Shown here: positions 3,416 through 55,777 of the stretch, piece by piece | How positions within the stretch are numbered: position 1 is the first letter of the stretch | Layout of the letters: every line of letters begins with the position of its first letter | Position numbers and translations under genes: made by a program | Notes under the pieces: generated by a model | Told to the model about the DNA's origin: nothing | What the model saw: the letters and a program-made list of their open reading frames with translations, nothing else | Databases searched by the model: none | Assembly (NCBI GenBank): GCA_001730065.1 | Contig: MDLE01000007.1 | Location: 4,435 to 68,434, forward strand | Length of the DNA: 64,000 nt | Source of the DNA: Rickettsiales bacterium (ex Bugula neritina AB1) | Lineage (GTDB): Bacteria > Pseudomonadota > Alphaproteobacteria > CAJXXZ01 > UBA1459 | Reading direction: 5' to 3'

Positions 3416-4438
3416 ATGTTAAATAAAATACAAATACCTATGTTTGAAAAACGTATACTTTTAGATCCTTTAAAATATCCATGGGCCTGGTCTTTCCATG
3501 AAGTTCAATCGTCAGTTTTTTGGCTACCAGAAGAGGTGTCATTAGATTTAGATTTAGTAGATTATAAACAACTTACGGAATATGAAAAAGGAGTGGTTAA
3601 TCGTATATTAGGTGCTTTTACAAAAATGGATGAAGAAGTGGGAGCCGTTTATGTAAATTTATATTTACCTCATTTTCAGGCAATAGAAATACGTATGATG
3701 TTATTAAGTTTTGCAAATATGGAAACAATACATGTGAAAGCTTATCGTAGCCTACCTATTGCTTTAGGTATATATGATAACCATTCTTTTGAAAAAGAAT
3801 TTATGGAATATAAGGAAATACAAGATAAATATGAGTATATGCAAAATTTTAAAGATGCATCTTATGAGGATATAGCTATTAATTTAGCGGTTGTATCAGG
3901 TTTTATAGAAGGTGTTGTATTATTCGGATCATTTGCAATTTTATTATATTTTTCTAAAAGAAGACCAGAATTAGGATTACGATCTCTTTTGAAGGGAGTT
4001 GGTCAAATTGTTGCTTTTTCTATAAGAGATGAAAGTATTCACTGTCAAGGTGTGATTACTTTATATAAACAATACTTAAAAGAATTAAAAGAATTAAAAA
4101 TTAGTATAGATTTAGAATATATTCATAAACGTATTTTAGAAGAAGGAGAATTAATTATTGAAAATGAAATGAAGTTTATAGACTTTTGTTTTCAAAATGG
4201 TGATTTACAAGGTTTAACAAAAGAAGAAATCAAGGAATATATTCGTTATATTTTTAATAGACGACTAATAGATTTGGGATTAGAACCTAAATTTTCTATA
4301 AAAGATAATCCTCTACCCTGGGTGGATGCGGCGATTGGAGTAGAAATTAGAAATTTTTTTACGGGGGTTGCTACAAACTATCAAAAAGTAACAGAAAGTT
4401 CAGTATCTAGTTGGGATGATGTATCTTATGACATTTAA
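3416..4438 (+). CDS. nrdB: Ribonucleotide reductase class I small (beta/R2) subunit
   Basis: Di-iron and radical-site pattern: FTKMDEEVG, ANMETIHVKAY (E..H...Y), FIEGVVLFGSFA, IRDESIHCQ. Confidence 0.9.
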   Translation: MLNKIQIPMFEKRILLDPLKYPWAWSFHEVQSSVFWLPEEVSLDLDLVDYKQLTEYEKGVVNRILGAFTKMDEEVGAVYVNLYLPHFQAIEIRMMLLSFANMETIHVKAYRSLPIALGIYDNHSFEKEFMEYKEIQDKYEYMQNFKDASYEDIAINLAVVSGFIEGVVLFGSFAILLYFSKRRPELGLRSLLKGVGQIVAFSIRDESIHCQGVITLYKQYLKELKELKISIDLEYIHKRILEEGELIIENEMKFIDFCFQNGDLQGLTKEEIKEYIRYIFNRRLIDLGLEPKFSIKDNPLPWVDAAIGVEIRNFFTGVATNYQKVTESSVSSWDDVSYDI

Positions 4439-4850
4439 AAAATTTGAGAAAAAAAATACTAAACTTCAAGATATTATAAAAGTAAAATTATTAGCAAATA
4501 GTAAACCTCCTAGGTATTTAAGTAAAAATACTTCATCTATATCTTTATTTTCTCGTGAAAAAGTTATCATAAATAGTAAAAGTTTATGCGTAGTGGCAAC
4601 GGGTGTTTGTATGAGTGTTAATAAAAAGTGTCGTATTGATTTAGTATCTCCAAAAAATTTTCAACTACCATTGTTAGTAGTAAATAAACCTGCTACAATT
4701 GATGTGGATTATAGGGGTGAAATTAAAATCATTTTCTTTAATTTAAGTAATAAAGATATAGTTATAGAAGAACAAAATCTAGTAGGTGAATTATTATTAA
4801 TAGAACACCAAAAAAAAATAGAATGTGAAAGGAACAAAAATGTGGTATAA
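4416..4850 (+). CDS. dUTPase-family paralogue 1, degenerate (keeps canonical motif 3 only)
   Basis: ATIDVDYRGEIKIIFFN aligns without gaps to E. coli Dut GLIDSDYQGQLMISVWN. Motif 1 (AGLDL) is replaced by SISL, motif 2 (RSG/RSS) by SPKN and motif 4 (RIAQ) by LVGE, and the motif 5 C-terminal arm is absent. FFNLSNKDIVIEE is paralogous to FFNLSKEDIVIKT in the next ORF. The start could instead be the ATG at 4428. Confidence 0.6.
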   Translation: MMYLMTFKKFEKKNTKLQDIIKVKLLANSKPPRYLSKNTSSISLFSREKVIINSKSLCVVATGVCMSVNKKCRIDLVSPKNFQLPLLVVNKPATIDVDYRGEIKIIFFNLSNKDIVIEEQNLVGELLLIEHQKKIECERNKNVV

Positions 4851-5421
4851 AAACAATGAAAATGAAAATAAAAATAACCGCTATGAAGGTGGAAATAATA
4901 GAAGAAATTTTAATAGGAATAATAGGAATTTTTCTAATGATAATAAATTTAGTAATAATAGAGATAAAAAAGGTTTTGGTACACAAAAAAGAGAACCTCT
5001 TAAAGTTAATGTAGATTTAATGGAAAATGCTATTTTACCCTCATATGCTACTGAAGGTTCTGCGGGTTTAGATCTTTTTTCTTTACAGGATATTACAATT
5101 AGTAGTAATTCTTTTGGAGAAGTTTCTACAGGTGTAAAATTATTTTTACCTCATAATAGAATTATTGCAGAGATTCGTTCTAGGTCAAGTTTAGGTAAAA
5201 AAGGATTAATTATACTTACAAATCATTTTGATTTTCAAGATAATGGTCAAGAAGTTATTGTTAAATTTTTTAACTTATCCAAAGAAGATATAGTAATTAA
5301 AACTAATGAAAGAATTGCACAAATTGTATTTAATAGTCTTTTAAGACCAGAAATAGAAATTAGAGATATGCTAGATAAAACCGTCCGTAATCAAGGTGGT
5401 TTTGGATCTACAGGTAAATAA
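4840..5421 (+). CDS. dut: dUTPase with N/R-rich N-terminal extension (motifs 1, 2, 4, 5 intact; motif 3 degenerate)
   Basis: LPSYATEGSAGLDLFS (motif 1), IRSRSSLGKKG (motif 2), ERIAQIVF (motif 4), RNQGGFGSTGK (motif 5). The motif 3 position reads HFDFQDNGQEV and lacks the IDxDY(R/Q)G signature. The ATG at 4840 is preceded by AAGGA; the track alternative is a GTG at 4825. It overlaps the upstream ORF stop within ATGTGGTATAA. Confidence 0.85.
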   Translation: MWYKNNENENKNNRYEGGNNRRNFNRNNRNFSNDNKFSNNRDKKGFGTQKREPLKVNVDLMENAILPSYATEGSAGLDLFSLQDITISSNSFGEVSTGVKLFLPHNRIIAEIRSRSSLGKKGLIILTNHFDFQDNGQEVIVKFFNLSKEDIVIKTNERIAQIVFNSLLRPEIEIRDMLDKTVRNQGGFGSTGK

Positions 5422-8116: not shown

Positions 8117-9223
8117 TTAACATATTATTTTTGTTAATATAAAATTAATCATAAAAGTTGCAATATTACAAAAACCTATTGTAGGAATGACATAATTAGG
8201 TGTGTAATTTAATATATATACAGGTAATAAAAAACCACCTACTACTTCTAACAAACCCATTAAAAAATAAATAATAAAAATAAAAAATACAGAATATAAT
8301 TTTAATTGTGATATATATATTAAAATTAAATTAAAAGATATTTTTAATAACTGATCATTGCTTTTTTTAAAATCTCCTTTAAAGCTATATAAAAACCATA
8401 TAGCACCAGCAATTTTCCCCACAAACATATAAATTAATAAATTTTTGTTATTAATATTAGATGATATTTGAATATTTCCATAACTTAAAAAAATCATAGA
8501 TATAATAAAAACAAAAATAGTATATATTAAATCTTTATTTATTTTTAAATTTTTTTCAGATATTTCCAAATACTTTGGGAAAGTTGATAATAATATTATA
8601 ATTAAATTAATAAAAGAAATTATTAAATTTATTTTGTAAAAGTTATTTATGGAAATAGTTCTTCCACAAAAAATTAGAAATATAATTGTTATAAAATGTG
8701 ACAAAATAGATGTCCAGTTTATATAAATTCCTAAATCATTATAATAACTACGTGTAAAGGATAAAAAAAAATTTAAGGGCATTGTACTTAAACCTATACA
8801 AAACAATCCTATTGTATATATGGAATTAGAACTATAATATAATCCCCTAAAACTTCCTAAAAAAATCAATAATAATGACATGCAAATATTAATTTTATCT
8901 TTAGATGTATTGGAAAAAACAAATTTCATTATATAACTTATAAAATAATATGATAAAATACATAATGTTAAAGTAATATATTTATAAAATGAGAAAAATA
9001 ACATATTAGAAATTGTAAAGATTAAAAATATAAATATATAAAAAATATAATTATTTTTAGTTTTTATTTTTTCTAGTAAATTAGAATTCATAAAATTAGT
9101 GAAGATAAAAATAGATAAAACCTCCATTAATAATTTTTTATCCTCTATAAAAGGTAAAAATATAGACATAATTTGTAGAAAAAAGAAAAAATAAAAACTA
9201 ATAGATAATTTTGTTAAACTCAT
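8117..9223 (-). CDS. Multi-pass integral membrane protein (about 10-12 predicted TM helices), function unknown; possibly a transporter
   Basis: Long ORF, hydrophobic throughout, with short polar loops. No diagnostic motif recognised. Confidence 0.5.
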   Translation of the reverse strand: MSLTKLSISFYFFFFLQIMSIFLPFIEDKKLLMEVLSIFIFTNFMNSNLLEKIKTKNNYIFYIFIFLIFTISNMLFFSFYKYITLTLCILSYYFISYIMKFVFSNTSKDKINICMSLLLIFLGSFRGLYYSSNSIYTIGLFCIGLSTMPLNFFLSFTRSYYNDLGIYINWTSILSHFITIIFLIFCGRTISINNFYKINLIISFINLIIILLSTFPKYLEISEKNLKINKDLIYTIFVFIISMIFLSYGNIQISSNINNKNLLIYMFVGKIAGAIWFLYSFKGDFKKSNDQLLKISFNLILIYISQLKLYSVFFIFIIYFLMGLLEVVGGFLLPVYILNYTPNYVIPTIGFCNIATFMINFILTKIIC

Positions 9224-11587: not shown

Positions 11588-12688
11588 ATGATAAAAGATA
11601 TAAAAAATTTTAAGTATTTATTTTTACTATTTTTATTACTTAATAATCCCTCTGAAACTATGTTCAAAAATTTATTCCAAGGAGGAAGTGATATAAGACA
11701 CAACAATGGTGTTACAAGTTTACCTAAAGAAACAAAAAAAAACCAAAATAACACTCCCCCTAAAAATCCAAAAAAACTATCACAAAAAGTACCTGAAACA
11801 AAAGAATCTAAAAAAGAAGTTGAAATGGAAAAACCTCAATCTAGAATAAAAAAATATATTTATAGTTTAAAAAAATCAAGTGTGATTGACACAATTGCCG
11901 ATCGTATTCATAAAAAAAACCCCCAAACCTTAGAAATAACAGTAAATAATTTAGGAATTCCAGAAATAAAAAATTGTAGAACATTTTATGATGATAATAG
12001 TGTATTGAATATAATAATAGATAATAATAAATTTAAAATTCAAGGAGTTGAATTTTACAATAATTTGTGTAATAGTTTGGAAAAATATTTTAATTCTATA
12101 AAACAAGAATATAATTTTTGTAATATTATTGTTACAGGTGAACATACAGAATTAATAATTGAAAAAGTTAAACAAGTAGTATCAAAATCTTGTCCAAATT
12201 TTAAAACTTTTATTTTTAGAGAAAATAATCTTTATCCTTATTCTGATTCTGGTTCTGATTCTGAGAATGATCCTGATCCTATTAATTTTGCAAATGTAAA
12301 TAATCGTGTACCTAACAACGTATCATCGATGATGAAGAAGGAATATAATATTTATTTACAAAAGAAAAAAACAACACTACCTTTTTCTAAAGATGTAAGT
12401 TATGTTTTGAGTAATTTGTGTTTTAGTGTATTCCCATATAAATTGAATAACACTAACTTATCATTTGTTGTATTCACCAATAATAACACAAAAAAAGAAA
12501 AAAATAATGAAAGATTTAAAATAGAAAATATTTCACCGTTTGTAAGTACACAAAGAAATTATAATAAAATCGTATACACAGAAAATCAAGATAAGCCTCA
12601 AGATAAGCCTCAAGATAATCCTAAAGATAATAATAAATTATTATCTACTACACCAAATGATTGTGTAGATGTTGTAAATTATAATTAA
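11588..12688 (+). CDS. Hypothetical protein with signal-like N-terminus and acidic/proline short repeats
   Basis: Hydrophobic N-terminus (YLFLLFLLLNNPS), SDSGSDSENDPDP, and a C-terminal QDKPQDKPQDNPKDN repeat. No known domain recognised. Confidence 0.4.
   Translation: MIKDIKNFKYLFLLFLLLNNPSETMFKNLFQGGSDIRHNNGVTSLPKETKKNQNNTPPKNPKKLSQKVPETKESKKEVEMEKPQSRIKKYIYSLKKSSVIDTIADRIHKKNPQTLEITVNNLGIPEIKNCRTFYDDNSVLNIIIDNNKFKIQGVEFYNNLCNSLEKYFNSIKQEYNFCNIIVTGEHTELIIEKVKQVVSKSCPNFKTFIFRENNLYPYSDSGSDSENDPDPINFANVNNRVPNNVSSMMKKEYNIYLQKKKTTLPFSKDVSYVLSNLCFSVFPYKLNNTNLSFVVFTNNNTKKEKNNERFKIENISPFVSTQRNYNKIVYTENQDKPQDKPQDNPKDNNKLLSTTPNDCVDVVNYN
12587..12634 (+). repeat. In-frame 12-nt tandem repeat (caagataagcct x2, then degenerate copies) encoding QDKP units
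   Basis: Read directly: caagataagcct caagataagcct caagataatcct aaagataat. Confidence 0.8.
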
Positions 12689-14518: not shown

Positions 14519-14601
14519 TGCGAATAAGAGGACTTGAACCTCCACGATTTTAAAGTCACAGAACCCTAAATCCTGCGCGTCTACCATTCCGCCATATTCG
14601 C
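14519..14601 (-). tRNA. tRNA-Leu (anticodon UAG), type II with long variable arm
   Basis: The minus-strand sequence GCGAATATGGCGGAATGGTAGACGCGCAGGATTTAGGGTTCTGTGACTTTAAAATCGTGGAGGTTCAAGTCCTCTTATTCGCA folds into a cloverleaf. The acceptor stem is 7 bp (GCGAATA/TATTCGC), the anticodon loop is TTTAGGG and the T-loop is TTCAAGT. It is a local GC-rich island. Confidence 0.9.
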
Positions 14602-14627: not shown

Positions 14628-15422
14628 TTAAATAAAAAAATATAAACAAGATAAAAAAATATACATCATATTTTCTTTATTCCATATCATCATAAAAATA
14701 AAATATAAATATATAATTTTAGAGGTGTTTTTTAATGACATATTACTATAACTGAAGAAAAAAATTATTTCTATTAATATAGAATTAATTCCAAAAATTA
14801 TCCAATAACAATTAAAACTTACTTCATGAAAATTACAAAAATAACCACAAAAAAAAAAGGAAGGTAGTAAATATAAACAAGAATGAAAAATTTTACTTCT
14901 TTTCATTAAAATATTATTAAAGGAAAACAATAAAATACTTGTGAATCCTAAAAAATAATTTGTAGGAAGAAATTTTATAAAAATATATAGGGTAATTAAT
15001 GAAGATTTTATAAATATTTTATGTTTTAAAGACTCTTGGAAGAATATTTTACCGAATAACATATCAAAAAATGGAATTGTATAGTAAAGAAAATTCATAA
15101 TTGTTACTCCATTTTTACGAATTTCAAAATGATTAAATACAAAACCACAGATTAATACTATACTTCTTAGAAGTTCAAAAAATATTTCTTTATAATTATT
15201 TTTATAAATAGATAATTCTTGATTTAAATTTTTTGGTTTTATTATAAGATAACTATATCTAAAAATTATCATAGATAAATACTTAATACCTACAATAGTA
15301 TATACATCTGTTTTTAAAGTTGTTACTATACTATCATTTATTAATCCAAGTAAAAAAGCAAAAAATAATAAATAATTCCATTTATTCTGTTGTATCCAAA
15401 TAGTTAAAGATTTTTTCCACAT
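14628..15422 (-). CDS. Multi-pass membrane protein, function unknown (possibly a DMT/EamA-type carrier)
   Basis: 264 aa and hydrophobic throughout (about 8-10 TM helices). It overlaps the murF 3' end by 41 nt, so the true start may lie downstream. Confidence 0.45.
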   Translation of the reverse strand: MWKKSLTIWIQQNKWNYLLFFAFLLGLINDSIVTTLKTDVYTIVGIKYLSMIIFRYSYLIIKPKNLNQELSIYKNNYKEIFFELLRSIVLICGFVFNHFEIRKNGVTIMNFLYYTIPFFDMLFGKIFFQESLKHKIFIKSSLITLYIFIKFLPTNYFLGFTSILLFSFNNILMKRSKIFHSCLYLLPSFFFCGYFCNFHEVSFNCYWIIFGINSILIEIIFFFSYSNMSLKNTSKIIYLYFIFMMIWNKENMMYIFLSCLYFFI

Positions 15423-16828: not shown

Positions 16829-17821
16829 ATGAAATATTTTTTATTATTAATAATTTTTCATTTTGAATCCAAATCTATCACACCTCATGTGATTATAACT
16901 AATTTTTTCATCTATACACTCTTTAGTCCTATATTCTTCTTTAAAAAATGTTGTGGTAAAAAATATTCTATTAGTACCATCGAAAAAACAACACATGAAG
17001 AATATAATAATTTTTTTTATATGCCTTTAGAAAATATAACAAATATTAATCAAATTGTGAATAACAACTTAAATGAAGAAGACAAAACAGCATTTTTGAT
17101 GGAAGGTTTCTTATTAATTTTTACAAACTTATGTCTTTTAAAGAATTTATTAGTAATTGAAATCAATAAAAAATTAAAAAATAATGAAGATATAAATAAT
17201 CAGAATCATTTTAATGATCCGAATCATTTTAATAATCAGAATCATTTTAATAATCAGAATCATTTTAATAATCAGAATCATTTTAATAAAAGTGATATTT
17301 ATTATTCTAATAGAGAAGTACTAAATTTATGTAAAATTAATTCATATATTAAAGAACTTGCAAAAAAATGGAATGTTTTATTAGAAGAAGAAAATATAAT
17401 TAGTTCCACCAAAATGATAAAAAAAATAGATATATTAATTCAACATATATATGAATCTTACATAAAATATTTTAATACAGCTATTTTATTAACATTTATA
17501 ATTTTCGTGGCTATTTTTATTAGTTTTGAAATAAGTTTGATATACAATCAATATAATATAGATAAAACTATTTTAGTAATTGGAATTTTTATAATATTAT
17601 GGATAATATTAAATTGCTTTTTATGGCTTAACAATTTAAAAAAGAATGAATTAATTAATTATGTAAAAATAACAAAAAAATATGAAACCTATAAAGTTAA
17701 TGGAAGTAATGTAGATTTTACGAATGAGTATGTAATGAAAGATCCAGAAAGAAACGAAACCGACAACAAAACAGAAATGTTACCAAGTATTAACCCTTAT
17801 CCTTATGAGGATGATAGCTAA
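16829..17821 (+). CDS. Hypothetical membrane protein with NQNHFN hexapeptide repeats
   Basis: Signal-like N-terminus, a repeat block and two C-terminal TM helices (AILLTFIIFVAIFISF, ILVIGIFIILWIILNCFLW). No known domain. Confidence 0.4.
   Translation: MKYFLLLIIFHFESKSITPHVIITNFFIYTLFSPIFFFKKCCGKKYSISTIEKTTHEEYNNFFYMPLENITNINQIVNNNLNEEDKTAFLMEGFLLIFTNLCLLKNLLVIEINKKLKNNEDINNQNHFNDPNHFNNQNHFNNQNHFNNQNHFNKSDIYYSNREVLNLCKINSYIKELAKKWNVLLEEENIISSTKMIKKIDILIQHIYESYIKYFNTAILLTFIIFVAIFISFEISLIYNQYNIDKTILVIGIFIILWIILNCFLWLNNLKKNELINYVKITKKYETYKVNGSNVDFTNEYVMKDPERNETDNKTEMLPSINPYPYEDDS
17198..17287 (+). repeat. Five in-frame 18-nt tandem repeats (aatcagaatcattttaat), encoding NQNHFN / DPNHFN
   Basis: Read directly; copies 3-5 are identical and copy 2 differs (gatccg for aatcag). 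Confidence 0.9.
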
Positions 17822-20413: not shown

Positions 20414-20417
20414 ATCG

Positions 20418-20489
20418 TGGGCGATACAAGATTCGAACTTGTGACCTAACCGTTATGAGCGGTGTGCTCTGCCGCTGAGCTAATCGCCC
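20418..20489 (-). tRNA. tRNA with CAU anticodon (elongator Met or lysidine-modified Ile2; not an initiator)
   Basis: The minus-strand sequence GGGCGATTAGCTCAGCGGCAGAGCACACCGCTCATAACGGTTAGGTCACAAGTTCGAATCTTGTATCGCCCA has a 7-bp acceptor with a G1-C72 pair, the loop CTCATAA and the T-loop TTCGAAT. There is no GGG/CCC in the anticodon stem. Confidence 0.9.
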
Positions 20490-20556: not shown

Positions 20557-23052
20557 TTATGCTAATAAATATTTTTTTTCGGTATTACTATATTTTGTTT
20601 TAAATTCTTTATATGCATCTTCACAAATAGACGGAAAATATAATTTTTTTCTATTTTTCTTTAAATATTGTTCATTACAAACATTCTTACAACATTTATA
20701 CAAATTATTCATTGATTTTTCATATCTTTCTAGATAATTATTTTTAGATTCATGAGAATGATAAATATGATCTTTTTCAAAATTTTTTATTAAATTATTT
20801 ATATAATCTATAGCTTTTTTTTTTTCCTTTTCTGTTAGAATATTATAATATCCTTCTAAATTCAAAAAAACAATTATATTCCAGGAATTATACTCTTTTG
20901 TAAATATTTTTTGTATATCATCTAATTGATGGTGAATAAGAGTATATTTAATTACTTTTTTTAATACATCTATATCATCATTAAAATTTTTATCAAAATT
21001 TTTATGTATAAAATTTATAATATTTTTTAATATAGTTAATTTTTCTATGTATGAGATATTTTTTATCTCATAATCGTATTGCAAATGATTAGGAGTATTT
21101 AGTAATTTCAAATTTTTATTAACACATAGCATATTAAACATGTTATTACCTTTTATATATTCTAAATATAAAATAAAATCATTTTTTACAATATTATTAA
21201 TAAATTCAAATATTATTTGTAAATTATTTTCTAAATCATCATAAGATGTAATGTTGAATTGATCTACAAGATTATATAATTCATTTAACATATTGTGTAT
21301 AGTAGGATTAACTACATTAGTATATTTTAAATGTAAATTTTTGATGTTATTATAAAAATTTTCATTAATTAACTTAGTATAGTTATTAAAATTTTTTATT
21401 AATTCTTTTATATTTGTATTATAAATACTTAATTTATTATTAATACATATTACAATATTAAGATATTCTATTAGGAGTAAAATTTTTTCTTTTATGGAGT
21501 AGTCTATGAATAATTGTGAATCTCTAACACATGAATATTGTATAATATTATTTTTATTTACAAAATCTATAATTTCTTGTAAATCTTCTAATATTAAATC
21601 TAAATTAACATCTTCTTCACCTATTATATTATATATATTTAAGATATTTGCAAATAAATTTTCTATAAAACTAATATCTATATCGTTATCTACACTAGTA
21701 ATATCTATATCGTTATCTACACTAGTAATATCTATATCGTTATTTATACAAAATTTAAAAAATATTTTAAATTTATATAAATAATCTTCTAAATTCTTTA
21801 TAGAATTTATATCCCCGTAAGGATATATTTTAGTACTTTGTCCTTCTATTAAATTACATAAATAATATAGTTGTTGTATTTTTTTTTCTTGAAGTTTATC
21901 ATATATATAAAAAACTTCTGGATTAATTTTATTCAATAAATAAAAATTTTCTTCTATAAATTCATTTAATGAGTAAAAAACTCTCAAAACCTCTTCAAAA
22001 CTATCTATTTTTAAATTTAAATTCTTACATGTCTCAATAATTAATGAAAAGTATTTATGTAAATCACTATTATATTCCTTATCTTTAATTATTTTAAAAT
22101 TTTTTTTATCATCATATAAGACTAATATATTAGGTTCTTGTATTTCAGTGATATTAATTAATTCCTCTAAAGAATTCTTAGTTATTGGAATATTGTTTTT
22201 TGGTATTATTTGATATATATTTTTTAGTTGATTTAAAGATACTGCATTTTCAATTTCCAATCCTGATTGTAAATTTTTTTTTACGTATATTTTTTCAATT
22301 TTATAGTAAGTATTAATTGTATTGTTGATATTATTATCTATACCTAACATTTTATTTATTTTACTGATAATAGAAAAAACATTACATACTAATTCAAATT
22401 TTTCATCATCACTCATAGTTTTGATATTTTTTTTACCGTTGATTACTATATCATTATTATGATATAAATTTGGTTCTTTCTCTATAAATATCAAAATTTG
22501 TCGTAAATCTTTTATTAATGATTGAAAGTGATTTTCTAACATTAAATTATTTTTAGAATATTTTTTATTATGTAATCGAAACAAAATTTTATTAAAAAAT
22601 TTTAATATGGTAATAATATTTGATTTTATAGGTTGATGGCCAATGTTATTATTGAACATTATAATCTCATCATGCTGCAAGTATAATATTAATATATTAC
22701 TATAAATATCATCAAATCTTTTAAATAACTTTTGTAATGTTATTTCTTCACGCGATAACATATAAGTTTTTTTTATTTCTTCTAAAATCATTAATATTTG
22801 TTTAATTTTTTCAGGTTCTTCCAAGTCTTTTAAGTGTGTTGTTTTTCTTATATTATTACTATTATAATGATTATAATAATTATAAATAAGTTTTTCCCCA
22901 TATTTTTCTACAAATTCTTCTATAAACCTCTTTGTTACTTGTATTGAATATTTTTGTAATTTTAATTTTTCTAAAAAATTTATATAGTAATTATTAATTG
23001 TATTACTATTTATACAAGAAAAGTAACAAAAAAATATGAGATTTAATAACAT
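20557..23052 (-). CDS. Large orphan protein (831 aa), signal-like N-terminus, N/K/I-rich, with DIDITSVDN repeat and Cys-containing C-terminus
   Basis: An uninterrupted 2.5-kb ORF in a stop-codon-rich AT background. N-terminus MLLNLIFFCYFSCINS. No recognisable catalytic motif. Confidence 0.45.
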   Translation of the reverse strand: MLLNLIFFCYFSCINSNTINNYYINFLEKLKLQKYSIQVTKRFIEEFVEKYGEKLIYNYYNHYNSNNIRKTTHLKDLEEPEKIKQILMILEEIKKTYMLSREEITLQKLFKRFDDIYSNILILYLQHDEIIMFNNNIGHQPIKSNIITILKFFNKILFRLHNKKYSKNNLMLENHFQSLIKDLRQILIFIEKEPNLYHNNDIVINGKKNIKTMSDDEKFELVCNVFSIISKINKMLGIDNNINNTINTYYKIEKIYVKKNLQSGLEIENAVSLNQLKNIYQIIPKNNIPITKNSLEELINITEIQEPNILVLYDDKKNFKIIKDKEYNSDLHKYFSLIIETCKNLNLKIDSFEEVLRVFYSLNEFIEENFYLLNKINPEVFYIYDKLQEKKIQQLYYLCNLIEGQSTKIYPYGDINSIKNLEDYLYKFKIFFKFCINNDIDITSVDNDIDITSVDNDIDISFIENLFANILNIYNIIGEEDVNLDLILEDLQEIIDFVNKNNIIQYSCVRDSQLFIDYSIKEKILLLIEYLNIVICINNKLSIYNTNIKELIKNFNNYTKLINENFYNNIKNLHLKYTNVVNPTIHNMLNELYNLVDQFNITSYDDLENNLQIIFEFINNIVKNDFILYLEYIKGNNMFNMLCVNKNLKLLNTPNHLQYDYEIKNISYIEKLTILKNIINFIHKNFDKNFNDDIDVLKKVIKYTLIHHQLDDIQKIFTKEYNSWNIIVFLNLEGYYNILTEKEKKKAIDYINNLIKNFEKDHIYHSHESKNNYLERYEKSMNNLYKCCKNVCNEQYLKKNRKKLYFPSICEDAYKEFKTKYSNTEKKYLLA
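21674..21743 (-). repeat. In-frame 27-nt tandem repeat, about 2.6 copies (plus-strand unit atatctatatcgttatctacactagta)
   Basis: Two identical 27-nt units at 21674-21700 and 21701-21727, then a 16-nt partial copy. They encode (N)DIDITSVD units in the 831-aa protein. Confidence 0.9.
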
Positions 23053-23135
23053 TTTGTTAATGATATTATATATTTATTAATAATAAAAAATAAATTTTTT
23101 TATTTGAATATTTACTTATATGTTATTATTTAATA

Positions 23136-23418
23136 GCACTAAGTGCTATGGTAATAGATCTTAGTTTTGTAAAATTAAAAAGACCCGGGGGCGGTACCCG
23201 GCTTCTCCACTTATGGGGAAGAATAGTTATCGATTTTTAATGGAATAAACTAAGTTACCAGGTAGTAATTCTCCCTTAAAAAGAATTAAGAAAAACGTGC
23301 AAATAAAACAGAAAAATCTGTGTTTGAATTGTCAAATTTGTTACTAATAAATAGTAGTCCAATGACAGTTTGTATTTAATACAGGACAGTAGAATTAAAA
23401 ATTTTCTACTGTTTTTTT
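23136..23418 (+). ncRNA. ssrA: Circularly permuted (two-piece, alphaproteobacterial type) tmRNA gene: acceptor piece, 5-nt spacer, coding piece
   Basis: This is the most GC-rich patch in the window. The acceptor stem pairs 5' GGGGAAG (23215-23221) with CTTCTCC (23202-23208), giving G3:U70 and A73 (23209). The T-arm is CCGGG (23185-23189) / CCCGG (23197-23201). The 3' strand lies upstream of the 5' strand, which makes the gene permuted. A long-range helix joins CTTAGTTT (23160-23167) to AAACTAAG (23247-23254) and GGTAA (23150-23154) to TTACC (23255-23259). A candidate tag ORF runs from GCA at 23299 to TAA at 23377-23379. The outer boundaries are approximate. Confidence 0.7.
23386..23418 (+). 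terminator. Rho-independent-type hairpin plus T-run at the 3' end of the tmRNA coding piece
   Basis: ACAGTAGAA (23386-23394) pairs with TTCTACTGT (23404-23412), followed by a T tract. Confidence 0.55.
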
Positions 23419-23506
23419 AAAAAATTTATTTTTTATGGGAATAATTTATTTTAATAAATATAACCACACTGATAAAAAAATATAATAATTTCAGTTAATA
23501 TATATT

Positions 23507-24316
23507 TTAATTTACAATATCAATATATAAATGACACTTTTTTCCCGTAAAACTTTTTATGTTTTTTGCGGCAAGCATAGAAATTTCTTTGATTTTTCCT
23601 AAAATAATATGATGTGCAGATTTTTTTATAAGAATATTTTGATATACAATTAATTCATTTTTTTGATTAGATTTAATAGAAGTAGTATTAATAATTACTT
23701 CATAGGGAATTTCTTCATAAAAGTTTTGAAAAATAATTTCTCTTGTAGCTTCTGTAATTTTTTCCTGTAAACACATATTTGAGGAAATATTTTTATTATA
23801 TAACCACTTTCCTGGTACAGTTTTTTTTATTAAAAAATCCACTAATTCTTTTATACCATTTTTAGGTATATCTTTTACAGAAATATATAAAATTTCTTTA
23901 AAGCCATTTTCCTTTAAAAAAGCTGTAATAGGTAATAATTTCATTTTTTTTATTAAATCTATTTTTGTAATTAATGCTATTTTATTTTTTACTACTAAAC
24001 TCATCATGAGAATCTTACTATTAATAGGTTTGTTTGCAGGAAATGTAAATATATTTAAAGTATTATTTTCATTTAAAATAGATGAATTTACAAGCCTATT
24101 TAAATTACTACCAGAGTTTTTATTAACACCCGGTGTATCCGTAAAAACAATTTGATTATTATCAATTGTTAAAACACCACTAAAATGATTATGAATGGTG
24201 GTTTGTGGTTTGTTAGATACAGCGACAATTTTCCTGTTTAATATTGTATTAATAATACTTGATTTACCACTATTAGGTATACCAATTATACTTACAAATA
24301 AATGATTTTTTTCCAT
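23507..24316 (-). CDS. era: GTPase Era
   Basis: G1 GIPNSGKSSIIN, G3 DTPG, G4 TKID, and a C-terminal KH-like region. Confidence 0.88.
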   Translation of the reverse strand: MEKNHLFVSIIGIPNSGKSSIINTILNRKIVAVSNKPQTTIHNHFSGVLTIDNNQIVFTDTPGVNKNSGSNLNRLVNSSILNENNTLNIFTFPANKPINSKILMMSLVVKNKIALITKIDLIKKMKLLPITAFLKENGFKEILYISVKDIPKNGIKELVDFLIKKTVPGKWLYNKNISSNMCLQEKITEATREIIFQNFYEEIPYEVIINTTSIKSNQKNELIVYQNILIKKSAHHIILGKIKEISMLAAKNIKSFTGKKCHLYIDIVN

Positions 24317-28165: not shown

Positions 28166-28726
28166 CTATGTATTTTGTAAAATACCTAAAAAATATATAA
28201 AATTTTTTTTTTCTAGTATTGATAATACATAAAAATTTTTAATATTATGTAAATTATTCATAATTTTTTCCTTTAAAAAACAAATTTTATTACCTATAAA
28301 AGAAAATTCATCTCTATATATATTTTGTTTTTTATTAAAAAATATTTTTGTAATATTTTCTATTGAATTATTACTACCAAATCCATAATAAACAAATTCA
28401 TCCTTATATTCTTTATGAATATTTATATTTTCTTTATAGAAGTATTTTGTATCTAAATCTTCATATTTTATATAATTTTTTTTTAATAAAATATCATTAA
28501 TATCATTTACATCTTCTATTATTTCATAAGCATTTTTAATAAATAATATTATTTCACTTACGGCATAATTATCAAAAATATTAAATATATTATAATAATT
28601 TCTCTCAAATTTTTCATATTCTAAAGCACATTCTAATAACAGAGTTCTATTACTCTTAGAAGAAAAAGGAATTATCATAAAATTATTACGAATTTGTTGT
28701 AAAAATATTTTATATAAAGTATTCAC
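28166..28726 (-). CDS. Hypothetical protein (186 aa)
   Basis: ORF only; no motif recognised. Confidence 0.3.
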   Translation of the reverse strand: MNTLYKIFLQQIRNNFMIIPFSSKSNRTLLLECALEYEKFERNYYNIFNIFDNYAVSEIILFIKNAYEIIEDVNDINDILLKKNYIKYEDLDTKYFYKENINIHKEYKDEFVYYGFGSNNSIENITKIFFNKKQNIYRDEFSFIGNKICFLKEKIMNNLHNIKNFYVLSILEKKNFIYFLGILQNT

Positions 28727-28817: not shown

Positions 28818-29951
28818 GTGTGGCAACAAATTCGTAGAAAATCACAAATTCCTCCAAAAAGAAAATGGAGAGTATGGTGTATTTTAGCTGGTAGAGGTTT
28901 TGGAAAAACTCGTACAGGTGCAGAAACACTACAGGAGTTTATGACAAATGGTAAATATAAAAAAGCAGCAATTATTGGTGCATCTATTTTAGAAGTAATG
29001 AATATTATGTTATATGGTAATAGTGGTTTAATGACCATCAATCCAAAATTAAAATATATATCGAAAAATCACACTGTTGTATGGCCAAACAATAGTATTG
29101 GTATATGTTTTGGAGGTGAGTATTTTGATAAAATTCGTGGTTATGAATTTGATATTGTGTGGATTGATGAATTTGCAAAAATTAAAAATGCTAATTTATT
29201 ATGGGAACAAATTCAGTTTTCTCTTAGAATAGGTAATAATAATAAAATTATTATTACAACTACTCCTAGAAATATACAAATACTAAAAGATATTATTAGT
29301 TTACCGGATACATATCTAACAAATGGTAGTTCTTATGAAAATAAAAAAAATTTATCAAAAGATTTTTATAAAGCTATCAAACAATATGAAAATACAACAA
29401 TTGGTGATCAAGAAATTTACGGAAAAATTACTAATGATCATGTTTTATGGAATAAATCACATATTATTTATGATAACTCTAAAATTATAAAATATGTAAT
29501 TGGTGTAGATCCTGGTTTTCAAGGTAAAAGTGAAACAGGTATTATTTTAGCGGGTATGAGTATAGATAACAATTATTATATTTTAGAAGATTATTCAGGT
29601 TATTATAAACCTGATGAATGGACTTCTTTAATTGCTAAAATTGCTAATGAATATAAAGCAGAAATTATTTTAGAAGTAAATCAGGGTGGTAATTTTTTAT
29701 CTAATATACTTACAAGAGATATTAAAAATATAAAAATCCATGAAGTAAGAGCAACACAGAGTAAATATGAAAGAGCAATGCCTATATTCCTTTTATATAA
29801 TAAAAAACGTGTTTATCATAAAAAATTATTTCCATTATTAGAGGAACAAATGTTATATTTTACTCATAAAAAAGATAGATTAGATGCTTTAGTTTGGAGT
29901 GTTTATGGATTATATAAAAAAAAAACTTTAACAACTACTTTACTTTTTTAG
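28818..29951 (+). CDS. Phage/GTA-type terminase large subunit (RcGTA g2-like)
   Basis: [35 protein letters not shown] matches the conserved GTA TerL N-terminus (GRGxGKTRxGAE Walker A). It also has Walker [11 protein letters not shown] and nuclease-domain acidic residues ([14 protein letters not shown]). GTG start. Confidence 0.85.
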
Positions 29952-41849: not shown

Positions 41850-42851
41850 ATGTTTAATATATTCAATAAAAATTTTAAAAAAGAAGAAAAATCTAGTTTG
41901 TTTAAAACAAATATTAATTGGATTAATCCATCTATTGTTAGTTTAGAGGAAGCTTATTATAATAATCCAATAGTTTTTAGGTGTATTAATCTATTTATAG
42001 AATATTTACATCCTATTAATTTCATTTCTGAAAATAATATAATATCTAATTATTTAAAAAAAAATATAAAATACATTGCTCATAATTTATTAGTATATGG
42101 TAATTGTTTTATTCATAAAGATTTATTTTTTTTATCTCTATATGACCTTAAAATACTCACACACGAGAAAACAAATGAATTAATGGGGTATCGTTTAAAA
42201 GATAAAATTTACGATAAATCAGAAGTAATACATATTAAATATGATTTTAATTCTTATCGACTATATGGTGTTAGTCCTATACAAGTTGCTATGAAGTCTA
42301 TTAATTTGTATAATAATATTTTTGAATATTTAGTAACATTGGTACAAAGTGGTGGACGTCCTTCAGGTATATTATCTCATGAAGAAGTACTAACGGAACA
42401 AGAAAAAAATAAATTAAAACAAGATTTTAAAGATATTCATACAAATTTTGGACATAATGTTAGTCTTCTTATGACAGGTGGAAGTTTTAAATGGCAATCC
42501 ATTGGATGTGAGCCAGAAAAATTAGAATTACATCGTCGCCTAGATGAAACAATGCGAGATATTTCTACTGTATTTGGAATACCTACTATGTTATTGGGAG
42601 CAATTAGAGATAATCTTACATTTTCTAATTTTCAAATTGCTCGTGAATATATGTTAGAGGATATAGTTGCACCTTTTGTTCATAAAATAACCAATATTTT
42701 TGAAAGTTTTTTTTCAACAAATATAGATTTTTCTTGTGAGAATTTACAACAAATTGATAAACATAGTTGTAATTTAGAAAAAATCTTAACTATTAATGAA
42801 AGAAGAAGCTTATTTGGTTTTGCGTCAATATCTAATGGAGATAAAATGTGA
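41850..42851 (+). CDS. HK97-family phage/GTA portal protein (RcGTA g3-like), shortened (333 aa)
   Basis: Portal-family region GVSPIQVAMKSINLYNNIFEYLVTLVQSGGRPSGILS and ...FGIPTMLLG.... TGA stop overlaps the next start (GTGA). Confidence 0.8.
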   Translation: MFNIFNKNFKKEEKSSLFKTNINWINPSIVSLEEAYYNNPIVFRCINLFIEYLHPINFISENNIISNYLKKNIKYIAHNLLVYGNCFIHKDLFFLSLYDLKILTHEKTNELMGYRLKDKIYDKSEVIHIKYDFNSYRLYGVSPIQVAMKSINLYNNIFEYLVTLVQSGGRPSGILSHEEVLTEQEKNKLKQDFKDIHTNFGHNVSLLMTGGSFKWQSIGCEPEKLELHRRLDETMRDISTVFGIPTMLLGAIRDNLTFSNFQIAREYMLEDIVAPFVHKITNIFESFFSTNIDFSCENLQQIDKHSCNLEKILTINERRSLFGFASISNGDKM

Positions 42852-55264: not shown

Positions 55265-55777
55265 TTAATTTTTTTTTTTAGGAGAAAGAATTGCATATAT
55301 TTCTCTATCTACATGTGTAGGAGGTTTTTCTAAATTACATTCTAAAATTACAAATTGTATAAGTTTGTTTAGAGTTTCTATACCATTTTCAGGTTTAATA
55401 TTTTCACGACCTTTTAAACGTATGGATACTTGTACTTTAGAACCTTCTTCTATAAATTGTAAAATTTTTTTTGATTTTACTTTTAAATCCGCTTCACCAA
55501 TATTCAAAGTAATTTTGATAAATTTTAAAATATTTGTTTTGTTATTTTTACTTTTATTTTTATTTTTTTTGTCTAGATCATATTTATATTGACCAAAATG
55601 ACATATTTTACAGGTAGGTATATCCTCATAAGATAATTGTACTAAATCTAAATCTTTATCATAAGCTAAATTTAAAGCTTCCCTTAAACTCATAACACCT
55701 AACATTTGTCCTAAATCATCAATTACACGTACATTAGCATGTTGAATACTATTATTATGCCTTATGTTATTTTTCAC
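55265..55777 (-). CDS. infC: Translation initiation factor IF-3
   Basis: ANVRVIDDLGQMLGVMSLREALNLAYDKDLDLVQLS, then the C-domain. The start codon is GTG (55775-55777), overlapping the upstream ORF's TGA (GTGA). Confidence 0.9.
   Translation of the reverse strand: MKNNIRHNNSIQHANVRVIDDLGQMLGVMSLREALNLAYDKDLDLVQLSYEDIPTCKICHFGQYKYDLDKKNKNKSKNNKTNILKFIKITLNIGEADLKVKSKKILQFIEEGSKVQVSIRLKGRENIKPENGIETLNKLIQFVILECNLEKPPTHVDREIYAILSPKKKN

What the first reader, a model, noticed from the sequence alone, without database searches (positions are those of the whole stretch)
23136..23418. Circularly permuted tmRNA gene with only a 5-nt spacer between pieces, a non-canonical T-loop and a long tag lacking the usual ...LAA end
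The only strongly GC-rich intergenic island folds as the tRNA-like domain of tmRNA, but in permuted order. The T-arm and acceptor 3' strand (CCGGG-GGCGGTA-CCCGG-CTTCTCC-A) lie upstream of the acceptor 5' strand GGGGAAG. The resulting 7-bp stem has G3:U70 (the alanine identity pair) and A73. An 8+5-bp long-range helix (23150-23167 with 23247-23259) ties the two pieces together. Three details stand out. First, only CTTAT separates the discriminator base from G1, and CCA is not encoded, so processing must cut a tight hairpin loop. Second, the 7-nt T-loop GGCGGTA lacks the usual TTCRANT. Third, the best candidate tag ORF begins with the typical Ala-Asn (GCA AAT at 23299) but encodes 26 aa, ANKTEKSVFELSNLLLINSSPMTVCI, without the canonical hydrophobic ...LAA C-terminus.
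Basis: partly seen in the sequence, partly recalled or inferred. Interest (0 to 1): 0.6.

Follow-up and report, generated by a model that had tools for sequence, protein, structure and literature searches.

The report
Two-piece tmRNA gene, odd tag
This is a genuine ribosome-rescue RNA (tmRNA) gene of the split, permuted type that all alphaproteobacteria carry, found in a tiny AT-rich symbiont genome; most of its flagged oddities are normal for the family, and only its rescue tag, which does not end in the usual alanines, stands out.

Summary
Positions 23134-23418 (+) encode a circularly permuted, alpha-type tmRNA (ssrA). Rfam alpha_tmRNA scores 72.3 bits (gathering 50) and tmRNA_permuted scores 71.3 bits (gathering 47).

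The window comes from 'Rickettsiales bacterium (ex Bugula neritina AB1)', a 436-kb genome of about 21% GC. Locus-tag arithmetic shows that one non-protein feature is already annotated at this exact spot.

The three flagged oddities, one by one:
- **T-loop.** GGCGGUA is the alphaproteobacterial consensus, so it is not unusual.
- **Spacer and CCA.** The 5-nt spacer is the shortest among 137 comparator genes, but others have 6, 7 and 8 nt. CCA is missing in about 5% of comparators and in both tRNA genes of this window, so this follows the genome's own rule.
- **Tag.** The frame ANKTEKSVFELSNLLLINSSPMTVCI is supported by both models and by the conserved position of the resume codon. It is the only one of 126 comparator tags that does not end in alanine, although its end is still hydrophobic.

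The 3' domain is also reduced to a terminator hairpin.

Verdict: an ordinary member of a known family with a reduced-genome flavour. Interest is low. No close relative's ssrA could be retrieved, so the tag frame has no comparative test, and smpB and the proteases could not be checked.

The parts
23134..23418 (+). Whole ssrA gene: precursor of the two-piece tmRNA, from the 5' hairpin to the end of the terminator U-run
   Evidence: Rfam RF01849 at 72.3 bits covers 23136-23304 and RF04321 at 71.3 bits covers 23150-23327. The fold has z = -4.6. The gene is 31% GC against about 20% for the surrounding genome.
23134..23148 (+). 5' hairpin of the acceptor piece (UAGCAC-UAA-GUGCUA), followed by the conserved UAUGG
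   Evidence: Aligned to the first hairpin of alpha_tmRNA, model positions 40-53. Also present in the minimum-free-energy fold.
23150..23181 (+). P2 strands carried by the acceptor piece: GGUAA 23150-54, CUUAGUU 23160-66, UUA 23175-77, AAA 23179-81
   Evidence: Paired in the Rfam alignment with no non-canonical pair flagged. The sequence differs from the consensus but every pair is kept.
23185..23201 (+). T-arm CCGGG-GGCGGUA-CCCGG
   Evidence: Identical to the alpha_tmRNA consensus. It lies in the most GC-rich 40-nt stretch of the window.
23202..23209 (+). Acceptor 3' strand CUUCUCC plus discriminator A73; CCA is not encoded
   Evidence: Read directly from the sequence. U70 is at 23206 and pairs with G3 at 23217.
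23210..23214 (+). Intervening sequence CUUAU, to be removed; U at -1 relative to the RNase P site
   Evidence: Comparator spacers have a median of 26 nt and a minimum of 6 nt. The -1 base is U in 93 of 137 comparators.
23215..23221 (+). Acceptor 5' strand GGGGAAG, the 5' end of the coding piece
   Evidence: Seven Watson-Crick or G:U pairs with 23202-23208.
23222..23233 (+). D-loop analogue AAUAGUUAUCGA
   Evidence: Aligned to the consensus AAAuAGGAUCGA with a 1-nt difference in length. Comparators vary here too.
23234..23259 (+). P2 strands carried by the coding piece: UUU 23234-36, UAA 23238-40, AACUAAG 23248-54, UUACC 23255-59
23260..23288 (+). Candidate pseudoknot PK1: AGG 23260-62 with CCU 23274-76, and UAAUUCU 23266-72 with AGAAUUA 23282-88
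   Evidence: Inference from reading the sequence and from the position equivalent to PK1 in the consensus. The small hairpin of RF04321 here has 2 non-canonical pairs. Not confirmed.
23299..23379 (+). Tag reading frame: resume codon GCA, 26 codons (ANKTEKSVFELSNLLLINSSPMTVCI), stop UAA at 23377-79
   Evidence: Both models align the resume codon at high posterior probability. It lies 84 nt from G1; 119 of 126 comparators lie at 82-88 nt. A is kept at position -4. The frame is open for 25 further codons (P about 0.09 by shuffling).
23371..23383 (+). Small hairpin UGUAU-UUA-AUACA that presents the stop codon
   Evidence: Minimum-free-energy fold. Weak evidence, because the sequence is very AT-rich.
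23384..23418 (+). 3' hairpin (core ACAGUAGAA / UUCUACUGU, 9-nt loop) plus U-run: an intrinsic terminator that replaces the usual 3' pseudoknot domain
   Evidence: Fold. It contains ACAG-U-AGAA, a diverged copy of the CA[AG]CAGAA motif found in 121 of 128 comparators. Model positions 238-355 of alpha_tmRNA are not matched.

Best explanation
This is the functional ssrA gene of a reduced-genome, Rickettsiales-like alphaproteobacterium. It encodes a two-piece (circularly permuted) tmRNA.

**Proposed mechanism (inferred from the family, not shown here)**
1. One precursor of about 285 nt is transcribed from just upstream of 23134 to the terminator at 23418.
2. The precursor folds so that the acceptor stem is closed by the short loop A-CUUAU.
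3. RNase P cuts 5' of G23215.
4. The CUUAU trailer left on the upstream piece is removed, by RNase Z or by 3' exonucleases.
5. CCA is added by the CCA-adding enzyme. This organism needs that enzyme anyway, because its tRNA genes do not encode CCA.
6. The result is an acceptor piece of about 79 nt and a coding piece of about 200 nt, held together by the 7-bp acceptor stem and about 18 bp of helix P2.
7. AlaRS charges the RNA through G3:U70 and A73, and SmpB delivers it to stalled ribosomes.
8. Translation resumes at GCA 23299 and stops at UAA 23377. This appends (A)ANKTEKSVFELSNLLLINSSPMTVCI to the stalled protein.

**What the tag probably means (inferred)**
The tag has drifted under extreme AT pressure. 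Alanine makes up only 2.3% of this proteome. The tag has lost the Ala-Ala end that ClpXP recognises but keeps a hydrophobic end. It probably either serves another protease, as the long Lon-recognised tag of Mycoplasma does, or is under relaxed selection.

**Shown versus inferred**
Shown: family membership, the anatomy, the position of the frame, and the comparative rarity of each feature. Inferred: the processing steps, aminoacylation, and the fate of tagged proteins.
For: - **Family models.** Both score above gathering, and every modelled pair is canonical despite a divergent helix sequence.
- **Selection on the core.** The T-arm is identical to the alpha consensus and the tRNA-like core is 66% GC in a 20% GC genome. 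That argues for strong purifying selection.
- **Fold.** The fold is independently recovered at z = -4.6.
- **Lineage.** The window is alphaproteobacterial: ctrA, a fused rpoBC, and GenBank names it Rickettsiales. prfB is present, so UGA is a stop codon.
- **Resume codon.** It lies 84 nt from G1 against the family's 82-88 nt, and the tag starts Ala-Asn like most comparators.
- **Short spacers exist elsewhere.** Comparators with 6-8 nt spacers include genes that ARAGORN recognises.
- **RNase P context.** U at -1 is the family's preferred base.
- **CCA.** Both tRNA genes in the window lack it, and a close relative (70-75% protein identity) encodes a protein resembling CCA tRNA nucleotidyltransferase.
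- **Existing annotation.** Locus tags and protein accessions show one non-protein feature, AB836_01780, annotated exactly here.
- **Precedents.** The Mycoplasma tag is 27 aa long and recognised by Lon in a bacterium without ClpXP (PMC8403727). Carsonella has an atypical terminal tag residue in an AT-rich reduced genome (PMC4131195). RNase P plus tRNase Z plus CCA addition is the accepted route for short acceptor-loop intervening sequences, which go down to 1 nt (PMC3978253).
Against: - No expression or processing data were examined.
- smpB, clpXP, lon, cca and rnpB are not in the window. The rest of the genome could not be searched.
- No close relative's ssrA was found, so the tag frame has no comparative support.
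- A 26-codon open frame is not by itself significant in this sequence (P about 0.09).
- The assembly had low coverage (2.3x k-mer coverage), so an indel inside the tag cannot be excluded.
- The 3' third of the alpha model is unmatched, and PK1 is only a plausible reading.
- ARAGORN does not call the gene.
Confidence: 0.85

Rival explanations
1. The tRNA-like part still works in ribosome rescue, but the tag no longer works as a specific degradation signal. It is drifting under AT pressure. On this view the gene is part-way along the reductive path that ended in the tag-less permuted tmRNAs of mitochondria.
For: - It is the only one of 126 tags without a C-terminal Ala, and there is no Ala codon in any frame downstream of the resume codon.
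- The tag composition mirrors the genome's AT-driven amino-acid bias.
- The 3' domain is reduced and the conserved CA[AG]CAGAA motif is degraded.
- The open frame is not significantly longer than chance.
- tmRNAs without a tag frame are known in mitochondria, and Nasuia may also lack one (PMC11915505).
Against: - The resume-codon context is conserved and the offset is exact.
- The frame is the longest of the three.
- The tag still ends in a hydrophobic residue, which is the general rule for tags (PMC4131195).
- Other very AT-rich symbionts keep Ala-Ala, so AT pressure alone does not force its loss (my own knowledge of Buchnera and Wigglesworthia tags, not tested here).
Confidence: 0.25
2. The tag frame is mis-read downstream because of a 1-nt indel, either an assembly error at low coverage or a real change. 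The true tag would be about 16 aa and would end at the in-phase double stop UAAUAA at 23345-23350. That double stop lies in the +1 frame of the assembled sequence.
For: - The +1 frame ends in a UAA UAA double stop, a common tmRNA feature seen in several comparators.
- The k-mer coverage of this bin was only 2.3x.
- Homopolymer runs (A5, A4) lie early in the tag.
Against: - Illumina/SPAdes assemblies rarely carry indels.
- The +1 peptide (…NLCLNCQICY) has three Cys and also lacks Ala, so it looks no more canonical.
- UAAUAA is expected fairly often by chance in DNA this AT-rich.
Confidence: 0.1
3. It is a dead or unprocessable ssrA relic. The 5-nt loop cannot be opened, so no chargeable 3' end is made.
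For: It has the shortest A73-to-G1 distance in the sample. CCA is not encoded. ARAGORN does not recognise it.
Against: - The T-arm matches the consensus perfectly and the acceptor stem is intact with G3:U70. A 66% GC core of that kind would decay quickly in a 20% GC genome if it were unselected.
- Comparators leave only 3-5 nt after CCA.
- Permuted tRNAs with 1-nt intervening sequences exist (PMC3978253).
- The ARAGORN miss persists after the spacer, CCA and tag are 'repaired'.
Confidence: 0.03
4. It is not a tmRNA at all: a chance GC-rich hairpin, or the intrinsic terminator of the convergent era gene read on the minus strand.
For: The terminator scan flags the T-arm plus a T-run on the minus strand, 23201-23176, downstream of era.
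Against: Covariance-model E-values are 1e-17 to 1e-19 over about 170-180 nt and include long-range helices. A terminator explains 27 nt at most. The two roles are also not mutually exclusive.
Confidence: 0.01

Closest known systems
Alphaproteobacterial two-piece tmRNA (Rfam RF01849 alpha_tmRNA; prototype Caulobacter crescentus ssrA, Keiler, Shapiro & Williams 2000, as cited in PMC11915505)
   Same: - Permuted gene order.
- T-arm with the GGCGGUA loop.
- G3:U70 and A73.
- Three-part P2 helix joining the two pieces.
- 5' hairpin followed by UAUGG.
- Resume codon GCA about 84 nt from G1, and a tag that starts Ala-Asn.
- Piece sizes of about 79 and 200 nt, similar to the roughly 82 and 210 nt I recall for Caulobacter (from memory).
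   Different: - Spacer of 5 nt, against a comparator mode of 25-30 nt.
- CCA not encoded.
- Acceptor positions 5-6 are A-U pairs; all 120 GTDB comparators have G/C-containing CGN or CAN at that position.
- Tag of 26 aa ending VCI instead of about 12 aa ending AA.
- The 3' pseudoknot domain is replaced by a plain terminator hairpin, and model positions 238-355 are unmatched.
Mitochondrial permuted tmRNA of jakobids and oomycetes (Rfam RF02544; PMC3590771, PMC11915505)
   Same: Alphaproteobacterial ancestry, a permuted two-piece form, G:U and A73 identity elements, a strongly reduced structure, and an AT-rich reduced genome.
   Different: Mitochondrial forms have no tag reading frame at all. This gene keeps a resume codon in the conserved context, an open frame and a full-length coding piece. 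I could not retrieve the mitochondrial spacer lengths or CCA status, because those papers are not held.
Mycoplasma tmRNA with a long, Lon-directed tag (PMC8403727; Gur & Sauer 2008 as cited there)
   Same: A reduced genome and an unusually long tag (27 aa there, 26 aa here) that is rich in hydrophobic residues and differs from the ClpXP-type ...LAA degron.
   Different: Mycoplasma tmRNA is one-piece and comes from an unrelated phylum. Its protease switch was tested experimentally. Here the protease repertoire is unknown.
Carsonella ruddii tmRNA (PMC4131195)
   Same: An extremely AT-rich, tiny genome. The tag is hard to recognise because its terminal residue is atypical, and comparative data were needed to fix the frame.
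   Different: Carsonella is a gammaproteobacterium with a one-piece tmRNA. Its odd terminal residue is charged (Lys), whereas here it is hydrophobic (Ile).
Circularly permuted tRNA genes of Cyanidioschyzon merolae and Thermofilum pendens (PMC3978253)
   Same: The 3' half lies upstream of the 5' half. The acceptor loop carries a very short intervening sequence (1-74 nt). In the algal genes CCA is added after RNase P and tRNase Z processing.
   Different: Those RNAs are re-ligated through a circular intermediate into one-piece tRNAs. tmRNA pieces stay separate.

Membership tests
Alpha-type two-piece tmRNA (RF01849 / RF04321) | Covariance-model score at or above the curated gathering score | tested here: met
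   RF01849 scores 72.3 bits against 50. RF04321 scores 71.3 bits against 47 and matches the full model, positions 1-213.
Alpha-type two-piece tmRNA (RF01849 / RF04321) | Circular permutation: the T-arm and acceptor 3' strand lie upstream of the acceptor 5' strand and the tag | tested here: met
   The T-arm and 3' strand are at 23185-23209, the 5' strand at 23215-23221 and the tag at 23299-23379.
Alpha-type two-piece tmRNA (RF01849 / RF04321) | tRNA-Ala identity: a 7-bp acceptor stem with G3:U70 and discriminator A73 | tested here: met
   GGGGAAG pairs with CUUCUCC. G23217 pairs with U23206, and A73 is at 23209.
Alpha-type two-piece tmRNA (RF01849 / RF04321) | T-arm with the alpha-specific loop GGCgGUA | tested here: met
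   Identical to the model consensus. 99 of 128 comparators have GGCGGUA and 29 have GGCAGUA; my search pattern had fixed GGCNGUA.
Alpha-type two-piece tmRNA (RF01849 / RF04321) | Long-range helix P2 that holds the two pieces together | tested here: met
   5+7+3+3 pairs, all canonical and kept through base changes relative to the consensus. Also recovered by the minimum-free-energy fold.
Alpha-type two-piece tmRNA (RF01849 / RF04321) | Resume codon and open tag frame at the conserved distance from G1 | tested here: met
   The offset is 84 nt, and 119 of 126 comparators lie at 82-88 nt. The codon is GCA and the tag starts Ala-Asn.
Alpha-type two-piece tmRNA (RF01849 / RF04321) | Tag ending in Ala-Ala (typical of the family, not strictly defining) | tested here: not met
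   The tag ends ...VCI. 122 of 126 comparators end AA and 3 more end in a single A. No Ala codon exists in any frame from 23302 to 23420.
Alpha-type two-piece tmRNA (RF01849 / RF04321) | Encoded CCA, then an intervening sequence of tens of nt (typical, not defining) | tested here: not met
   A73 is followed by CUUAU and then G1. 121 of 128 comparators encode CCA. The comparator spacer median is 26 nt and the minimum 6 nt.
Alpha-type two-piece tmRNA (RF01849 / RF04321) | Pseudoknot PK1 between P2 and the resume codon | tested here: inconclusive
   A plausible H-type arrangement can be drawn over 23260-23288. It was not modelled, and no relatives were available to test covariation.
Alpha-type two-piece tmRNA (RF01849 / RF04321) | Alpha-type 3' pseudoknot domain with the CA[AG]CAGAA motif | tested here: not met
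   Model positions 238-355 are unmatched. The motif is present in 121 of 128 comparators; here there is only ACAG-U-AGAA inside the terminator stem.
Alpha-type two-piece tmRNA (RF01849 / RF04321) | Processing into two stable RNAs, with a CCA 3' end on the acceptor piece | not testable with these tools
   This needs RNA-seq or RACE.
Alpha-type two-piece tmRNA (RF01849 / RF04321) | Partner protein SmpB encoded in the genome | not testable with these tools
   It is not among the ORFs of the window that I scanned. The other contigs of the 436-kb assembly could not be searched.
Mitochondrial-type tmRNA (RF02544) | Loss of the mRNA-like domain and tag frame | tested here: not met
   A resume codon, an open 26-codon frame and a coding piece of about 200 nt are all present.

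The most novel reading that the evidence does not exclude
The gene may capture an intermediate stage in the reductive evolution of alpha-type two-piece tmRNA within an obligate intracellular lineage. The intervening sequence is minimal, CCA is no longer encoded, the 3' pseudoknot domain has collapsed to a terminator hairpin, and the tag has left the ClpXP-type ...AA class. The tag would then either have been re-targeted to another protease (a Mycoplasma-like switch, independently, in an alphaproteobacterium) or be on the way to the tag-less state seen in mitochondrial tmRNAs.
Probability: 0.2. Interest if true: 0.45.

Novelty: new member of a known kind. Interest (0 to 1): 0.2.

Why it matters
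Mostly it does not. The finding shows that a reader working from raw sequence correctly recognised a permuted tmRNA, and that public family models recover it without difficulty.

The modest points of interest are these:
- It extends the lower bound of the A73-to-G1 spacer seen in alpha-type ssrA genes to 5 nt. That is a useful test case for how RNase P and the 3'-end enzymes open a very tight acceptor loop.
- It is a rare alpha-type tag without a terminal alanine. If relatives conserve it, that would point to a change in which protease clears rescued proteins in a highly reduced symbiont.
- It is a case that ARAGORN misses, which matters for annotating tiny AT-rich genomes.

Tried and rejected
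1. **ARAGORN.** It finds no tmRNA, either on the whole window or on the excised region at a relaxed threshold. I tested whether the short spacer, the missing CCA or the odd tag explain this. I inserted CCA, lengthened the spacer to 20-30 nt, changed the last two codons to Ala-Ala and swapped in a canonical tag. None of these edits rescued detection, while ARAGORN does find comparators with 7-8 nt spacers and one without CCA. The miss is therefore not diagnostic, and its cause remains unexplained.

2. **A close relative's ssrA through synteny.**
   - Era homologs at 73% and 45-49% identity gave contigs L001-L008, with no tmRNA on them.
   - The 831-aa neighbour has no homolog at all.
   - TilS homologs at 70% and 36-43% identity gave contigs L155-L159, again with no tmRNA.
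   - Gene order is rearranged and the relatives' contigs are short.

3. **Relatives by DNA pattern.** The metagenome scan required A/U at acceptor positions 5-6. It returned 26 contigs, all from organisms of 31-60% GC, and none is a close relative.

4. **An unbiased spacer distribution.** The distribution I report therefore describes the short end only.

5. **Older literature.** The jakobid, oomycete and Caulobacter tmRNA papers (PMC1370551, PMC3849159, PMC16621) are not held. Mitochondrial spacer lengths could not be cited.

6. **Source paper.** The main text never mentions tmRNA, and the one supplement file held as text has no hit for tmRNA, ssrA, SmpB, ClpX or ClpP (the single 'Lon' hit is the word 'Longest').

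7. **Chance GC-rich hairpin or era terminator.** Considered and rejected on the covariance-model evidence.
Full report
**What is there.**
- T-arm CCGGG-GGCGGUA-CCCGG at 23185-23201.
- Acceptor 3' strand CUUCUCC at 23202-23208, with discriminator A at 23209.
- Five bases, CUUAU, at 23210-23214.
- Acceptor 5' strand GGGGAAG at 23215-23221. This gives a 7-bp stem with G3:U70.

Scanning the whole 64-kb window against Rfam at curated thresholds gives four hits. Two are tRNAs. The other two lie on this locus: RF01849 alpha_tmRNA (72.3 bits, gathering 50, E = 9e-18, 23136-23304) and RF04321 tmRNA_permuted (71.3 bits, gathering 47, full model, 23150-23327). No modelled base pair of the alpha model is non-canonical, although the P2 helix sequences differ from the consensus. 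An unconstrained minimum-free-energy fold of 23130-23420 recovers the T-arm, the acceptor stem, the three-part long-range helix and a 3' hairpin followed by a U-run. Its z-score is -4.6, and none of 200 shuffles folds as well.

**Where it comes from.** Exact protein look-ups identify the window as a contig of 'Rickettsiales bacterium (ex Bugula neritina AB1)'. This is the AB1_rickettsiales bin of Miller et al. 2016: 436 kb, 8 contigs, 21.6% GC, 2.3x k-mer coverage (PMC5041132). That paper never mentions tmRNA.

The window is a dense, standard-code bacterial genome of about 20% GC. It carries ctrA, a fused rpoBC, prfB, mur genes, a ribosomal-protein operon and scattered portal and terminase genes. 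An alphaproteobacterium is expected to have exactly this permuted form of ssrA (PMC11915505; PMC3590771).

The locus tags run _01760 (PgeF-like), TilS, _01775 (831-aa ORF), _01785 (Era), _01790 (MurG), while the protein accessions OED45316-OED45320 are consecutive. Tags step by five, so _01770 is the tRNA-Met gene. One further feature without a protein product, _01780, sits exactly between the 831-aa ORF and era. By inference, the public record already annotates this gene.

**Testing the three 'stand-out' details against the family.** I scanned one genome per GTDB species for the alpha T-arm and acceptor 3' strand followed within 30 nt by GGGG. I also scanned JGI metagenomes for the same pattern with A/U at acceptor positions 5-6, which gave 26 loci. 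For each locus I located G1 by requiring complementarity to the acceptor 3' strand.

- *T-loop.* GGCGGUA is the Rfam consensus. It occurs in 99 of 128 unique genes, and the rest have GGCAGUA; my pattern had fixed GGCNGUA. It is not non-canonical for this family.
- *Spacer.* The A73-to-G1 distance has its mode at 25-30 nt (median 26) and a continuous short tail of 6, 7, 8, 8, 8, 8, 9, 10... nt. Seven of 137 genes have 8 nt or fewer, and 23 have 13 nt or fewer. The 5 nt here is the shortest seen, by one base. Because nearly all comparators encode CCA, the stretch actually excised is only 3 nt in L033 and 4-5 nt in several others. This gene is therefore not unique in presenting a tight loop. The sample is biased towards short spacers, so these fractions are upper bounds.
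- *CCA.* 121 of 128 genes encode CCA. Three have CCU, two have CCC, one has UAA and this one has CUU. Both tRNA genes of the window also lack CCA (…CGCCCA|CGA and …UUCGCA|GUA). The ssrA gene therefore follows the genome's own rule, and a CCA-adding enzyme is required in any case. A close relative (Era 73%, TilS 70% and terminase 75% identical) encodes a protein whose best NCBIfam match is CCA tRNA nucleotidyltransferase, at E = 7e-44 but below the curated cut-off.
- *Tag.* Both covariance models align GCA 23299 to the consensus resume codon with high posterior probability. It lies 84 nt from G1, and 119 of 126 comparators lie at 82-88 nt. The A at position -4 is kept, and the peptide starts Ala-Asn like most comparators. 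The frame runs for 26 codons to UAA 23377-79. Comparator tags span 9-33 aa with a mode of 12, and 5 of 126 are 25 aa or longer. So the length is in the upper tail but has precedents. The C-terminus is the real outlier: 122 of 126 tags end AA, three end in a single A, and only this one (…VCI) does not end in alanine. No GC dinucleotide occurs anywhere from 23302 to 23420, so no frame could supply a terminal Ala. The terminal residue is still hydrophobic, which Hudson et al. give as the general rule, with Carsonella as the exception (PMC4131195).

**Further anatomy.** The alpha model is matched only over positions 40-237 of 355. The 3' third of the family structure is not recognisable. The motif CA[AG]CAGAA is present in 121 of 128 comparators, at a median of 192 nt from G1. 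Here it survives only as ACAG-U-AGAA, forming the 5' arm of a 9-11 bp hairpin followed by a U-run at 23384-23418. In other words, the usual 3' pseudoknot domain appears to have been reduced to a terminator. A pseudoknot PK1 can be drawn at 23260-23288, but that is only a reading of the sequence. The acceptor positions 66-68, CUU, are unique in the sample, where all GTDB comparators have CGN or CAN. They pair with A5, A6 and G7, a compensated and AT-shifted stem.

**How it most likely works.** By homology with characterised two-piece tmRNAs, a single precursor is cut by RNase P 5' of G23215. The -1 base is U, as in 93 of 137 comparators. The CUUAU trailer is trimmed and CCA is added. This yields an acceptor piece and a coding piece joined by the acceptor stem and helix P2. 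Alanyl-tmRNA with SmpB then rescues stalled ribosomes and appends the tag. RNase P, tRNase Z and CCA addition are the accepted route for even shorter acceptor-loop intervening sequences in permuted tRNAs (PMC3978253).

That the core is under selection follows from its composition: 66% GC, with a T-arm identical to the consensus, in a genome of 20% GC whose proteome is only 2.3% alanine.

The tag has either drifted under relaxed selection or co-evolved with a protease other than ClpXP. The precedent for the second option is Mycoplasma, which lacks ClpXP and uses a 27-aa hydrophobic tag recognised by Lon (PMC8403727). Which of these applies cannot be decided here. smpB, clpXP and lon are not in the window, and I could not search the rest of the genome.

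**Caveats.**
- No close relative's ssrA could be retrieved, despite using all three protein searches and nine contig look-ups. The tag frame therefore rests on position and context, not on conservation.
- A 26-codon open frame has P of about 0.09 in dinucleotide shuffles.
- Coverage of the bin was low. The +1 frame ends in a UAAUAA double stop, so a 1-nt indel that would give a tag of about 16 aa remains a minor rival.
- ARAGORN misses the gene. Repairing the spacer, CCA or tag in silico does not rescue detection, whereas ARAGORN does find comparators with 7-8 nt spacers and one without CCA. The miss therefore says nothing about the flagged features.

**Verdict.** This is a true, almost certainly functional and almost certainly already annotated alpha-type two-piece tmRNA gene. 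Permutation and the T-loop are family norms. The short spacer and the missing CCA are extremes of known variation that fit this genome. The tag without a terminal alanine and the collapsed 3' domain are the only uncommon traits, and they are what one might expect in a very reduced, very AT-rich symbiont. Interest is low. It would rise modestly if relatives show that the unusual tag is conserved and that ClpXP has been lost.

Noticed in passing
window 44401-52830 (+): rpoB and rpoC are fused into one 2809-aa ORF. It matches the NCBIfam models for the fused beta/beta' subunit, NF011417 and NF007172.
   Followed up: partly
window 41850-42851 (+) and 28818-29951 (+); L155 110-1240: An HK97-type portal gene and a terminase large-subunit gene lie isolated among housekeeping genes. 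The terminase is 75% identical in a related symbiont contig. It is therefore conserved in the lineage, more like a gene-transfer-agent remnant than a recent prophage.
   Followed up: partly
window 20557-23052 (-), 52833-55220 (-), 8117-9223 (-), 11588-12688 (+), 16829-17821 (+), 14628-15422 (-), 28166-28726 (-), 55774-56475 (-), 60662-61399 (-): Nine sizeable ORFs, up to 831 and 795 aa, have no Pfam or NCBIfam hit. The 831-aa ORF next to ssrA has no detectable homolog in 5.8 billion proteins.
   Followed up: partly
window 4416-4850 (+) and 4825-5421 (+): Two adjacent, slightly overlapping ORFs both match dUTP diphosphatase. This could be a tandem duplicate or a split or fused dut.
   Followed up: no
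window 20417-20489 (-) and 14519-14601 (-): Neither tRNA-Met(CAU) nor tRNA-Leu(UAG) encodes the 3' CCA. The discriminator is followed by CGA and GUA respectively.
   Followed up: yes
window 23201-23176 (-): Read on the minus strand, the tmRNA T-arm followed by a T-run scores as the only intrinsic-terminator-like site in the region. It lies about 300 nt downstream of the convergent era gene. It may be coincidental, or it may serve a second role.
   Followed up: no
window 23053-23506; GenBank locus tags AB836_01760 to _01790: Locus tags step by 5 and protein accessions are consecutive. So one non-protein feature, AB836_01780, is annotated between the 831-aa ORF and era, exactly where the tmRNA gene lies.
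   Followed up: partly
L123 (Acetobacteraceae MAG CBDDMJ010000004.1) and L033 (alphaproteobacterial MAG CAVUIK010000008.1): L123 has an alpha-type ssrA with UAA in place of CCA and an 8-nt spacer. L033 has only CUU between its encoded CCA and G1, the tightest excised loop in the sample.
   Followed up: partly
L135, L142, L153, L136 (JGI and other metagenome contigs): These alpha-type tmRNAs have very long tags of 29-33 aa, rich in Arg, Asn and Ala. An example is ANNKNGRRAANVNLNVANRNGRGARRQARNAA. All of them still end in AA.
   Followed up: no
window 23000-23520; L132, L135: ARAGORN 1.2.41 fails on this gene and on two comparator permuted tmRNAs that the pattern and Rfam-style anatomy identify clearly. 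The cause was not found.
   Followed up: partly
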